This document shows, in pieces, positions 9,835 to 10,461 of a stretch of 64,000 bases of DNA. Source of the stretch: an uncultured Parachlamydiaceae bacterium (lineage in GTDB: Bacteria; Chlamydiota; Chlamydiia; Chlamydiales; Parachlamydiaceae); the NCBI GenBank assembly GCA_963752155.1, contig CAVVXH010000004.1:89456-153455 (forward strand), in the 5' to 3' direction. Each line of letters opens with the position of its first letter. The first letter of the stretch is position 1. The position numbers and the translations under genes are program-made. The notes below the pieces were generated by a model. It ran no database searches, was not told the origin of the DNA, and worked only from the letters and a program-made list of their open reading frames with translations.

Positions 9835-10461
9835 AAATTGCGCAAATTGTAGCTCATCATTCCAATGCATACGCATCAGGATAAGGATAAGATAAGGAAT
9901 AAGGAAATTAAAATTTTATTTCCTTATCCTGAATCCTGATGCGTATGCATTCCGAGTATACAGCTTGACACGTTCTGTTGCTACTGTGGATCAACGATAA
10001 GAACGATAAGAACGATAAAAAACTATAAAAACGATGGAAGAAGTCTGGTTGTAGGAAAAACCGTAATCGTGGAATTAAAATGTTGTAAAAGTTTGGTTCG
10101 CGAACATCAGGCGCAATTATTCAACTATTTAAAAGTTTCTCAACTTTAAATCGGTTTGTTAGCAAATTTCCGGCATAGGAAATTACTGCAAAACAATGAG
10201 GACTTTTCGACTAATCTAGAAGAAATCTGTGACGTACTGAGTATTCCACAAATTTTTATCGTTCTTATCGTTCTTATCGTTCTTATCGTTTTTATCGTTT
10301 TTATCGTTGTATCGTTGTATCGTTGTATCGTTGTATCGTTGATTACGTCTACATAAAAAAACATATCCCGACAACATCGTGAATGCGTGTTAATGTTAAT
10401 TTCCTTATCCTTATCCTGATGCGTATGCATCGGAATGATGAGCTACAGTTTGCGCAAATTT
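9835..10461. mobile_element. Inverted-repeat cassette (family 2) enclosing a GxxExxY gene remnant
   Basis: ~65-bp terminal inverted repeats (ttgcgcaaa(t/c)tgtagctcatcattcc(a/g)atgcatacgcatcaggataagg...), internal hairpin 9864-9952, inverted aacgataag arrays at 9991-10033 and 10253-10343. Confidence 0.8.
10034..10190 (+). pseudogene. GxxExxY protein remnant (internal deletion plus in-frame stop)
   Basis: ATG GAA GAA at 10034, then from 10045 in another frame LVVGKTVIVELKCCKSLVREHQAQLFNYLKVSQL*IGLLANF, which aligns with ILVENKVIIEVK..HKAQLLTYLRLS..LGLLINF of the 21191 gene. Confidence 0.8.

What the first reader, a model, noticed from the sequence alone, without database searches (positions are those of the whole stretch)
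9835..10461. GxxExxY nuclease remnant packaged inside nested inverted repeats: candidate new mobile/selfish element
Seen: ~65-bp terminal inverted repeats enclose an internal hairpin, a 9-bp array (aacgataag) and its inverted partner (10253-10343, with additional 8-bp units). Between the arrays lies a cryptic gene missed by the ORF track: ATG GAA GAA at 10034, then LVVGKTVIVELK..HQAQLFNYLK..*IGLLANF, which aligns to the GxxExxY protein at 21191. Known: GxxExxY proteins are PD-(D/E)xK nuclease-like with no established function. Inference: the gene travels as an IR-bounded cassette and may maintain or mobilise palindromic repeats, analogous to RAYT/REPIN systems but with an unrelated enzyme.
Basis: partly seen in the sequence, partly recalled or inferred. 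Interest (0 to 1): 0.9.

Follow-up and report, generated by a model that had tools for sequence, protein, structure and literature searches.

The report
Dead copy of array-flanked nuclease cassette
This stretch is a broken, gene-dead copy of a small nuclease gene cassette bracketed by mirror-image arrays of a 9-base motif, one of about 45 such loci in this chlamydia-like genome, and the family looks like an undescribed kind of selfish DNA.

Summary
Observation confirmed. Window 9828-10467 holds 64-nt outer inverted arms, an inner hairpin, inverted AACGATAAG arrays and a C-terminal GxxExxY remnant (TIGR04256, 53.9 bits, cut-off 35).

Interpretation partly supported. The mobile unit is flank C, (+) array, gene, (-) array, flank D. 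The outer arms belong to a separate dispersed repeat (A, 41-56 hits, mostly away from arrays) in which this cassette lineage is nested.

The genome has 85 arrays at 45 loci (0 in a shuffle). One locus has an intact gene with all catalytic residues, and 26 of 45 keep gene-derived DNA. Nine copies share the window copy's deletion junction, six its stop codon and four a further 12-bp deletion. So dead copies kept being copied.

In 46 of 71 testable loci from several phyla, GxxExxY flanks form inverted repeats of 8-9-bp units stronger than all 376 shifted controls (2 of 73 other small genes). Two copies in another lineage share identity only from array edge to array edge.

The mechanism is inferred, not shown: the nuclease probably recognises its arrays. 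The architecture holds beyond this genome; the large array expansion does not (916 pattern hits here, 0-2 in each of 20 relatives).

Five literature searches found no description. This scan has noted the same design on other DNA (88 notes, at least 85 genomes).

The parts
9828..9866 (+). Left outer arm 'A': a copy of a dispersed repeat of about 30-40 nt (core AAATTGCGCAAATTGTAGCTCATCATTCC). It is not part of the nuclease cassette proper.
   Evidence: I1; 56 HSPs genome-wide, 11 of them within 400 bp of an array; 41 cores with up to 5 mismatches, often as inverted doublets about 145-152 bp apart with a different interior.
9864..9951 (.). Hairpin 'B': a perfect 19-nt stem plus arms built of GGATAAG-like units. 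Only one arm of it recurs on the right side (10398-10430).
   Evidence: I7, I19, I23. B hits lie mostly next to arrays, in the class-I copies; only sub-threshold generic hairpin (miRNA model) hits in Rfam.
9952..9992 (+). Flank 'C': the conserved 5' outer flank of the cassette (core ...CTGTTGCTACTGTGGATC). It ends in the GATC that abuts the array.
   Evidence: 22 of 23 genomic copies adjoin an array. C always lies on the gene-start side.
9993..10036 (+). 5' array: three AACGATAA(G/A) units plus two degenerate units. The last unit forms the start codon (AAACGATG).
   Evidence: D5. The same junction of array and ATG occurs in the intact copy and in relatives.
10034..10043 (+). Start-codon stub ATGGAAGAAG, followed directly by the deletion junction. 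About 205 bp of the gene are missing (codons 4 to about 72) and the frame is shifted.
   Evidence: ref 329-351 joined to ref 557; the junction ATGGAAGAAG|TCTGGTT is shared by 9 copies.
10045..10185 (+). GxxExxY C-terminal remnant (LVVGKTVIVELK...HQAQLFNYLK..X..IGLLANFRHRK). It keeps the ExK motif and lacks the upstream catalytic E and D.
   Evidence: TIGR04256, 53.9 bits, profile 64-110 of 116. PF13366, 53.2 bits; 88% identical to the intact copy.
10147..10149 (+). In-frame TAA (CAA in the intact copy). The same substitution is shared with five other copies.
10186..10252 (+). Remnant of the gene's 3' end and 3' untranslated stretch. It carries a 12-bp deletion shared with three other copies.
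10253..10341 (-). 3' array, inverted: six 9-mer units (CTTATCGTT / TTTATCGTT), then five 8-mer units (GTATCGTT), ending ATCGTTGAT.
   Evidence: D1, D2, I2-I5.
10342..10397 (+). Flank 'D': the conserved 3' outer flank of the cassette. The first 14 nt (ATTACGTCTACATA) are shared by nearly all cassette types in the genome.
   Evidence: 16 of 17 copies adjoin an array..
10398..10430 (-). Right copy of one arm of hairpin B.
   Evidence: D4, I6..
10431..10467 (-). Right outer arm A' (inverted copy of A).
   Evidence: I1..

Best explanation
The element at 9828-10467 is a dead, non-autonomous copy of a GxxExxY cassette.

What the cassette is. It is a compact unit made of a short 5' flank (C), a tandem array of AACGATAAG units whose last unit supplies the ATG, a ~141-codon PD-(D/E)xK nuclease gene, an inverted array of the same units, and a short 3' flank (D).

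What happened to the window copy. It lost ~205 bp of the gene, gained a frameshift and a stop codon, and lies nested inside a different palindromic repeat (arms A and B). That composite was then copied several more times.

The genome as a whole. It holds one intact cassette (C10:276538-277353), about 25 decayed ones and about 19 gene-less array palindromes. This is the pattern of one autonomous element with many non-autonomous derivatives.

How it most likely works (inferred, not shown). The nuclease binds the 9-mer units as an oligomer on both arrays. Or it recognises the hairpin or cruciform that the inverted arrays can extrude. It then cuts near the conserved outer edge (GATCAACGAT ... ATCGTTGAT). 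Either the unit is excised and reinserted, or a break is made that is repaired by copying a filled locus. No target-site duplication results. Arrays grow and shrink by slippage, and they serve as homology arms that let interiors be exchanged between loci.

My odds:
- Dead copy of a multi-copy cassette family: about 0.9.
- The family is selfish or mobile DNA: about 0.75.
- It is mobilised by its own GxxExxY nuclease acting on the arrays: about 0.45.
The single confidence figure given for this explanation (0.6) is for the statement as a whole.
For: SHOWN
1. Remnant identity.
2. Genome-wide arrays: 85 arrays at 45 loci, 1083 units, none in a shuffled genome.
3. 8 of 13 GxxExxY loci lie between '+-' arrays, and a ninth (C8) has 1-2 units per side.
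4. 26 of 45 array loci keep DNA derived from the gene.
5. The intact copy has all invariant residues: E33, D72, E82, K84. It folds as a PD-(D/E)xK core at pLDDT 89.5. Best structural matches are Cas4 SSO0001 (Z 8.6), restriction-enzyme nuclease domains and Hjc.
6. Nested shared derived characters in dead copies at different loci: 9 share the junction, 6 the TAA, 4 a 12-bp deletion. A second deletion class (ref 404|664) occurs in 4-5 loci. So there was copying after inactivation.
7. Homology between the window copy and four paralogues spans about 9830 to 10460-10478.
8. Among relatives at 65% identity or more, 11 of 23 with both flanks carry ACGAT-unit runs on both sides, against 0 of 98 controls.
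9. Unit-agnostic inverted-repeat score: 52 of 71 loci above the 99th percentile of controls, and 46 of 71 above the maximum of 376 shifted controls. Around other small genes, 2 of 73 exceed that value.
10. The arms are tandem 8-9-mers that differ by lineage.
11. Two copies 14 kb apart in an unrelated MAG are 92.7% identical over about 645 bp, and that identity ends at the outer array edges.
12. In relatives the ATG is formed by the last unit.

INFERRED: that the protein binds or cuts the arrays, and the mode of movement.
Against: - No excision product, empty site or insertion polymorphism was obtained. Synteny with the same-genus genome breaks at the relevant places. The one sequencing run gave only short contigs and no joints.
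- No target-site duplication was seen. That fits some mechanisms but removes a classic transposition hallmark.
- Class-I copies share the A/B arms as well. Their spread could therefore be due to whatever moves the A family, or to segmental duplication, rather than to the nuclease.
- Shared interiors could spread between array loci by gene conversion without any transposition.
- The copies are diverged (78-93% to the intact copy), so there is no sign of recent activity.
- 19 of 71 loci in other genomes show no flanking inverted repeat above the 99th percentile of the controls.
- Several of the 71 loci are near-duplicates of each other (for example L091/L092, L101/L102, L076/L082), so they are not independent.
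- The large arrays were found only in this genome and in one locus of a same-genus genome. Many relatives are fragmented assemblies that may have lost repeats.
- The link between protein C-terminus and unit (EWKRLQ with ACGAT, EYKRLH with TGAT/GGAT) may be a single phylogenetic split.
Confidence: 0.6

Rival explanations
1. The arrays and cassettes are passengers. Copies spread through another machinery: the unknown transposase of the A-type palindromic repeat, a Y1/RAYT-type enzyme, or plain segmental duplication plus gene conversion between array loci. The GxxExxY nuclease has an unrelated cellular role, for example defence or repair.
For: - All class-I copies sit in A/B context, and homology extends through the A arms.
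- A is an independent family, often in doublets.
- The genome encodes two Y1_Tnp proteins.
- Long arrays are ideal substrates for ectopic recombination.
- The fold is closest to Cas4 and restriction-type nucleases.
Against: - Most array loci (for example those on C1, C6 and C11) have no A or B nearby.
- In the A-hit lists, no A copy lies within 10 kb of either Y1_Tnp gene.
- The inverted-array architecture around the gene is conserved across phyla that have different units. The copied unit ends at the arrays in an unrelated genome. A passenger model does not explain this.
Confidence: 0.2
2. The inverted arrays are cis-regulatory or RNA-level signals of a resident gene: operator sites for autoregulation, or a long RNA stem processed by RNase III as in ORF-bearing 23S rRNA intervening sequences. 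The many gene-less arrays in this genome are a lineage-specific microsatellite-like expansion.
For: - The 5' array abuts and even forms the start codon, so binding there would control expression.
- The inverted repeats would form a long stem in a transcript.
- Array expansion is confined to this genome and its genus.
- The 9-nt period keeps the reading frame.
Against: - Regulation does not explain 45 dispersed loci, each with paired inverted arrays and the same C and D flanks.
- It does not explain the genealogy of dead copies at different loci, or the duplicated units that end at the array edges.
- The window copy lies between protein-coding genes, not in rRNA.
- This reading is compatible with, rather than exclusive of, a selfish element.
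Confidence: 0.15
3. The cassette is a homing-type element. The nuclease cuts gene-less array palindromes ('empty alleles'), and the gene is copied in by recombination that uses the arrays as homology arms. The arrays themselves spread by another route.
For: - Gene-less palindromes exist, with as little as 13 bp between the arms (C6:187187-187960, 26 + 51 units).
- Arrays give up to about 450 bp of homology.
- No target-site duplication is seen.
- Interiors with identical breakpoints occur at loci with different array lengths.
Against: - Only 1 of 45 loci carries an intact gene, which is a poor record for a homing drive.
- It leaves the origin of new array loci unexplained.
- No cleavage data exist.
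Confidence: 0.15

Closest known systems
REP / RAYT (REPIN) systems
   Same: - One intact enzyme gene is flanked by the same short repeats that are dispersed genome-wide as inverted (palindromic) pairs.
- There are many non-autonomous copies and one master gene.
- The repeats can form hairpins.
   Different: - The enzyme is a PD-(D/E)xK fold nuclease (TIGR04256/PF13366), not an HUH Y1 transposase (PF01797).
- The arms are tandem arrays of 8-9-bp units (3 to 52 units), not single REP hairpins.
- Many copies still carry decayed pieces of the gene.
TIR transposons and their MITEs, including transposons with several subterminal binding sites (Mu, Tn7: recalled, not from a call)
   Same: - Inverted ends.
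- Internal-deletion derivatives with shared breakpoints that were amplified.
- Multiple repeated binding-site-like units at each end.
   Different: - No target-site duplication was seen.
- There is no DDE, serine or tyrosine transposase.
- The element is only about 0.5-0.8 kb, with a 141-aa protein.
- The outer flanks C and D are asymmetric.
ORF-bearing intervening sequences of 23S rRNA (S23p / PF05635 type).
   Same: A small ORF is enclosed by a long inverted repeat, forming a compact insert, in overlapping phyla.
   Different: - The window copy lies between protein-coding genes, not in rRNA.
- The protein family is different.
- The arms are tandem-unit arrays.
Free-standing homing endonuclease genes of the PD-(D/E)xK type (recalled)
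   Same: A small nuclease gene that behaves selfishly and leaves no target-site duplication.
   Different: - Homing genes are not normally bracketed by inverted tandem arrays.
- They do not leave dozens of gene-less palindromes.
- No target site is known here.

Membership tests
GxxExxY protein family (TIGR04256 / Pfam PF13366 PDDEXK_3): the window remnant | HMM score above the curated cut-off | tested here: met
   53.9 bits against cut-off 35. 53.2 bits against cut-off 22. Only profile positions 64-110 of 116 are covered.
GxxExxY protein family (TIGR04256 / Pfam PF13366 PDDEXK_3): the window remnant | Complete catalytic set E...D...ExK and the GxxExxY motif | tested here: not met
   The remnant keeps only ExK (VELK). 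The GxxExxY motif, with E33 and D72 of the intact copy, lies in the deleted part. There is also a frameshift after the ATG and an in-frame TAA. It is a pseudogene fragment, not a functional member.
GxxExxY protein family: the intact copy at C10:276674-277099 | Full-length HMM match, invariant residues and PD-(D/E)xK fold | tested here: met
   138.5 bits, profile 1-115. E33, D72, E82 and K84 present. Model pLDDT 89.5, with Cas4, restriction-enzyme and Hjc matches.
REP/RAYT (REPIN) system | Associated enzyme is a Y1 HUH transposase (PF01797) | tested here: not met
   The gene between the arrays is TIGR04256. The two Y1_Tnp genes of the genome do not appear beside arrays or A repeats in the lists.
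REP/RAYT (REPIN) system | Dispersed inverted pairs of the same repeat that flanks the single-copy enzyme gene | tested here: met
   45 array loci, mostly '+-' pairs, and one intact array-flanked gene.
MITE (non-autonomous deletion derivative of a TIR element) | Inverted ends, small size, no intact gene, several copies, derived from a longer element by internal deletion | tested here: met
   Nine copies share the junction at ref 351|557.
MITE (non-autonomous deletion derivative of a TIR element) | Target-site duplication | tested here: inconclusive
   None was visible at cassette ends in relatives or at the L087/L094 pair. The window copy is nested in other repeats, so its own insertion site cannot be read.
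23S rRNA intervening sequence | Located inside a 23S rRNA gene | tested here: not met
   The neighbours are protein-coding ORFs: a His_Phos_1 gene, two unassigned ORFs and an ankyrin protein. No rRNA match in 9400-10900.
CRISPR array | Direct repeats separated by unique spacers | tested here: not met
   Units are head-to-tail with a period of 8-9 nt and no spacers.

The most novel reading that the evidence does not exclude
GxxExxY proteins are the mobilising nucleases of a widespread, so far undescribed class of prokaryotic mobile element. Its ends are inverted arrays of an 8-9-bp unit that the protein reads directly, with the unit co-evolving with the protein's C-terminal segment. It moves without target-site duplication through a hairpin or cruciform intermediate. 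This genome, with one intact gene and about 44 derivative loci carrying arrays of up to 52 units, would be a natural amplified model of it.
Probability: 0.35. Interest if true: 0.9.

Novelty: new variant of a known kind. Interest (0 to 1): 0.72.

Why it matters
GxxExxY/PDDEXK_3 is a large family spread across phyla. The only survey I found lists its function as unknown (PMC3424549, one passage of its results table seen).

A consistent architecture would give the family a testable function and would add an enzyme class to the short list of prokaryotic mobilising enzymes. That architecture is: the gene's start codon built from the last unit of an array, a mirrored array behind the gene, lineage-specific units, and amplified dead derivatives.

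This genome is unusually informative for three reasons:
- It is assembled through the repeats.
- It has a single intact candidate master gene.
- It preserves a readable genealogy of non-autonomous copies.

Practically, such arrays break short-read assemblies. They also create long palindromes of up to about 770 bp, which should be hot spots of genome instability.

Tried and rejected
- Empty site in relatives. A DNA search with window 8450-11480 in 20 relatives matched only the upstream His_Phos_1 gene in a same-genus genome. The neighbours of the intact cassette gave one conserved flank only. That flank has no cassette within 1.5 kb in G001, but synteny is broken on the other side. No clean empty site was obtained.
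- Sequencing runs. One DNA run was listed, with 0.07 of the sampled words, and no RNA holder was listed. Laid on 8400-11500, it gave only contigs of 35-151 nt, no joints, and no piece spanning the element. Uninformative.
- Single-sequence structure prediction: pLDDT 39.4, discarded.
- Sequence search of the PDB: nothing below E = 0.4.
- Homodimer prediction: no verdict.
- My first flank statistic (shared exact 9-mers) missed the short arrays in relatives. My first unit count used upstream windows displaced by about 54 nt, because the query was mis-set: it began 18 codons upstream of the ATG and lacked the last 17 residues. Both were replaced.
- Automatic calling of the unit per locus was too noisy to support a formal covariation test. 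Only the by-eye pattern is reported.
- A cassette-free version of the A-B element was not found. The modules recombine in many combinations.
- Hairpin B as the arm of a second cassette family in this genome: only 3 GGATA-unit runs exist genome-wide. Not pursued, although similar units flank more distant GxxExxY genes elsewhere (L046, L048, L050-L053, L056).
- Literature. Searches for 'GxxExxY', 'PDDEXK_3', 'TIGR04256' or 'PF13366', a chlamydial repeat query that returned only CRISPR papers, and 'PDDEXK' with TIR/selfish terms gave no description of this architecture. Supplements were not searched.
- Promoter and terminator scans were at or below shuffle expectation.
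Full report
WHAT IS AT THE LOCUS

The window is G000:C4:89456-153455. Between a divergently oriented unassigned ORF (9224-9799, minus strand) and a 280-aa unassigned ORF (10637-11479) lies a 640-nt nested palindrome.
- outer arms 9828-9891 / 10404-10467 (64 nt, 91% complementary);
- an inner hairpin 9864-9882 / 9933-9951 (19 nt, perfect);
- three AACGATAA(G/A) units at 9993-10021;
- an inverted array at 10253-10341, made of six 9-mers and then five 8-mers.

As single-stranded DNA the unit folds to -129.7 kcal/mol, against -61.5 +/- 4.5 for shuffles (z = -15.2). 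No Rfam family reaches threshold. The only hits are sub-threshold matches of the inner hairpin to miRNA-precursor models, which is what any hairpin gives.

THE GENE FRAGMENT

Read in the frame that starts at 10036 with the TAA as X, the sequence GRSLVVGKTVIVELKCCKSLVREHQAQLFNYLKVSQLXIGLLANFRHRK... scores 53.9 bits on TIGR04256 (cut-off 35). It covers profile positions 64-110 of 116. It scores 53.2 bits on PF13366.

The ATG GAA GAA at 10034 is real but sits in another frame, which reads MEEVWL*. The fragment keeps the ExK motif only. It is a pseudogene piece.

THE PARENT ELEMENT

A search of the whole genome with TIGR04256 gives 14 matches at 13 loci. Three are intact, and five cover the same profile positions, starting at 63. 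The one intact copy that lies between AACGATAAG arrays is at C10:276538-277353. In gene orientation it reads:
- flank C;
- a 27-unit array whose last unit supplies the ATG (...AAGAACGATGGAAGAAGAC...);
- a 141-codon ORF;
- about 50 nt;
- a 9-unit inverted array;
- flank D.

The window copy matches it at 88% over 201 nt. It is missing ref 352-556, with ATGGAAGAAG joined to TCTGGTT.

HOW MANY, AND WHAT KINDS

With a CGATA-core detector there are 85 arrays at 45 loci, 1083 units and about 10 kb in all. A shuffled genome gives none. Array length runs from 3 to 52 units. One locus (C6:187187-187960) is a 26 + 51-unit palindrome with 13 nt between the arms.

8 of 13 GxxExxY loci lie between '+-' array pairs. 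A ninth (C8:169333) is a different deletion derivative with only 1-2 units per side. 26 of 45 array loci retain DNA derived from the gene and 19 do not.

Deletion derivatives fall into classes with shared breakpoints:
- ref 351|557 in seven spacers by BLAST, and nine copies once two further loci are added;
- ref 404|664 in four to five loci.

Within the first class the characters are nested. Nine copies share the junction. Six share CAA to TAA. Four (the window copy, C10:224, C15:85 and C15:132) share a further 12-bp deletion. That is a genealogy of copying events that happened after the gene was already dead.

WHAT THE OUTER ARMS ARE

Arm A (9828-9866) gives 56 hits genome-wide, of which 11 lie within 400 bp of an array. 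There are 41 cores with up to five mismatches. They often form inverted doublets about 145-152 bp apart with a different interior (GATGTTGAGTGTAGCC...) and with further conserved sequence outside the core. So A is a REP- or MITE-like family of its own.

By contrast, flank C (22 of 23 copies) and flank D (16 of 17 copies) almost always adjoin arrays.

Homology between the window copy and four paralogues runs from about 9830 to 10460-10478. This particular dead cassette therefore sits nested in an A-B palindrome, and the composite was copied as a whole.

I found two Y1_Tnp genes. In the lists, no A copy lies within 10 kb of either of them.

IS THE ARCHITECTURE GENERAL?

I fetched 80 loci that encode relatives of the intact protein from named public genomes. 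My query was mis-set: it began 18 codons upstream of the ATG and lacked the last 17 residues. The hits are valid, and I corrected the coordinates from then on. The closest loci are chlamydial MAGs (Parachlamydiaceae and others, 52-91% identity). The rest are Bacteroidota, Planctomycetota, Cloacimonadota and others (41-52% identity).

Direct reading shows (AACGATnnn) x 2-10 running into the ATG and (nnnATCGTT) x 3-4 some 40-70 nt after the stop.

Counts:
- Among loci at 65% identity or more, 11 of 23 with both flanks have ACGAT runs on both sides, and 15 of 24 on at least one side. Controls give 0 of 98.
- Among loci below 65% identity, 0 of 49 have them on both sides, against 0 of 278 controls.

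A unit-agnostic test aligned 200 nt upstream against the reverse complement of 260 nt downstream:
- 52 of 71 testable loci score above the 99th percentile of 376 shifted controls (9 of the 80 loci lacked a flank).
- By my count from the listing, 46 of 71 score above the control maximum of 13.5.
- Around other 90-200-aa ORFs in the same loci, only 2 of 73 exceed 13.5.

The arms are visibly tandem units whose sequence changes with lineage: AACGATnnn, AATGATATn, CAGGATAAG, ACACGGATT, CACAGATTA, AGACATAA, CACAGAAnA, ACGCAAATT.

Caveats: several loci are near-duplicates of each other, and 19 of 71 show no signal.

In one MAG, two copies that encode identical proteins 14 kb apart share 92.7% identity over about 645 bp. 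That identity starts and stops at the outer edges of the inverted CACAGAA arrays, with no target-site duplication.

The other two intact GxxExxY genes of this genome follow the theme with another unit. The C6 copy is enclosed by a 53-nt inverted repeat containing GCACAAAG units. The window's 21191 gene has ...GGCACAAAGACACAAAGATC directly before its ATG, but no downstream partner.

WHAT IS SPECIFIC TO THIS GENOME

The pattern AACGATANN x 3 (up to 1 mismatch) occurs 916 times here and 0-2 times in each of 20 relatives. One of those is a same-genus genome with 12 TIGR04256 matches.
- That genome's copy of the cassette has ordinary arrays of 3 and 4 units.
- A second same-genus genome has one locus with 17 + 7 units on a 2.5-kb contig.

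So the architecture is general, while the large array expansion and the swarm of derivatives are local. Fragmented assemblies may hide repeats. But near-closed relatives with 2-7 contigs also show none.

THE PROTEIN

In an alignment of 46 sequences the invariant columns are V23, G30, E33, Y36, V59, D72, E82, K84, Q96 and N113. E33, D72, E82 and K84 make up the E...D...ExK set of PD-(D/E)xK nucleases, and all are present in the intact copy.

The alignment-based model has pLDDT 89.5 and pTM 0.82. Its best structural matches are:
- Cas4 SSO0001 (Foldseek E = 1.5e-5; VIA Z 8.6);
- the nuclease domain of BpuSI (Z 8.2);
- AF1548 (Z 8.2);
- R.SwaI (Z 8.1);
- archaeal Hjc resolvases (Z 6-7).

These Z values are middling and mark the common fold, not a specific function.

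In the chlamydial clade, proteins flanked by ACGAT units end ...E-W-K-R-L-Q, and those flanked by TGAT or GGAT units end ...E-Y-K-R-L-H. This may be one split in the tree, so it is a lead only.

HOW IT MOST LIKELY WORKS

Shown:
- a conserved gene-plus-inverted-arrays unit;
- lineage-specific units;
- a copied unit that ends at the arrays;
- amplification of dead derivatives;
- an apparently functional nuclease in one copy.

Inferred:
- The nuclease reads the units. Multiple sites per end imply cooperative or oligomeric binding.
- It acts at the conserved outer edge (GATCAACGAT ... ATCGTTGAT), or on the hairpin or cruciform formed by the arms.
- It thereby either excises the unit or makes a break that is repaired from a filled copy, leaving no target-site duplication.
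- Arrays change length by slippage and serve as homology for exchange between loci.

The rivals are kept open with the odds given in their sections: passenger of another machinery, regulatory or RNA-processing signals, and homing into gene-less palindromes.

COMPARISON WITH WHAT IS KNOWN

- REP/RAYT is the closest in logic, but the enzyme class differs. This defining feature was tested and not met.
- MITE criteria are met, except for the target-site duplication.
- ORF-bearing 23S rRNA intervening sequences share the 'small ORF in a long stem' design, but not the location or the protein.
- It is not a CRISPR array, because there are no spacers.

Five literature searches found no description of this architecture. 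What I saw in print is limited to two things:
- One paper notes a 'GxxExxY domain' gene next to a reverse transcriptase (PMC8934634, one passage).
- The 2012 survey lists PDDEXK_3 as of unknown function with multiple transfers (PMC3424549, one passage).

The scan's own notes record the same design repeatedly on other DNA (88 notes in at least 85 genomes). Those are unchecked AI notes. I re-derived the general pattern independently.

VERDICT

The window element itself is an old, dead, nested copy. The value of the finding lies in the family and in this genome's unusually rich, fully assembled record of it.

Noticed in passing
G000 loci C5:61433-61608, C7:60986-61321, C10:13485-13720, C10:646824-647232, C13:3577-3966, C15:118958-119196, C17:108328-108584, C21:92521-92741, C2:339546-339756, C11:319140-319370: 'Inside-out' modules: a (-) array, a conserved core of about 121 bp (start of flank D, about 70 nt, end of flank C), then a (+) array. 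The arrays point away from the core. The whole thing is the centre of a repeat of about 0.85 kb. Unexplained; possibly two array-led units head to head.
   Followed up: partly
20 sites in G000, e.g. C1:54551, C1:92070, C7:61328, C15:119221: Every copy of ...ATAATTGA(A/G)GAAGGTGGTGACATCATTGAACAT follows a (+) array directly, just as the GxxExxY start codon does. It continues in two conserved variants. The open frame reads (TIR/TIK)n-IIEEGGDIIEH... with no ATG. It may be a second kind of cassette interior or the remnant of another gene.
   Followed up: partly
window 21191-21649, and L003:1292-1989 (G000:C6, around 157328-157672): The two other intact GxxExxY genes of this genome belong to a different subfamily (about 40% identity to the remnant over 42 residues) with GCACAAAG / CACAAAGA units. 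The C6 copy is enclosed by a 53-nt, 77% inverted repeat. The window copy has the units only upstream, and its ORF runs on about 35 codons past the domain.
   Followed up: partly
window 20935-21070: A 47-nt, 83% inverted repeat built from the interior sequence of A-type repeats (GAGTGTAGCCACGT...) lies just upstream of the 21191 GxxExxY gene.
   Followed up: no
window 34371-34427 (G000:C4:123826-123882): A B-like hairpin (...CATACGCATCAGG...AAGATAAGGAGATAAAATTTTAATTTTCTTATTCCTTATCCTGAT) without arrays, joined to an A-interior module. These repeat modules recombine freely.
   Followed up: partly
G000:C6:187187-187960: A near-perfect palindrome of about 770 bp made only of 9-mer units (26 + 51) with 13 nt between the arms. 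Such a long palindrome would be expected to be unstable in most bacteria (recalled, not from a call).
   Followed up: no
L017:791-2027 (G000:C15, about 117290-118526): A gene next to one inside-out module is split into three consecutive ORFs of 158, 174 and 85 aa. It looks like a broken ATPase-type gene. I did not run a family search on it.
   Followed up: no
G009, several contigs (e.g. C41:16417-16535, C93:4429-4544, C14:7759-7874, C3:4530-4645): A genome of another genus in the same family carries at least six gene-less mini-palindromes: two inverted arrays of about 33 nt of the same unit, about 50 nt apart.
   Followed up: no
L046:3836-3946 / 4445-4555 and L048:3809-3883 / 4452-4524: More distant chlamydial GxxExxY genes are bracketed by very long inverted repeats (local scores 103.5 and 44.5) built of GGATAGGA / CAGGATAAG units around a GATCATGCATATC-type palindrome. 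They resemble hairpin B of the window.
   Followed up: partly
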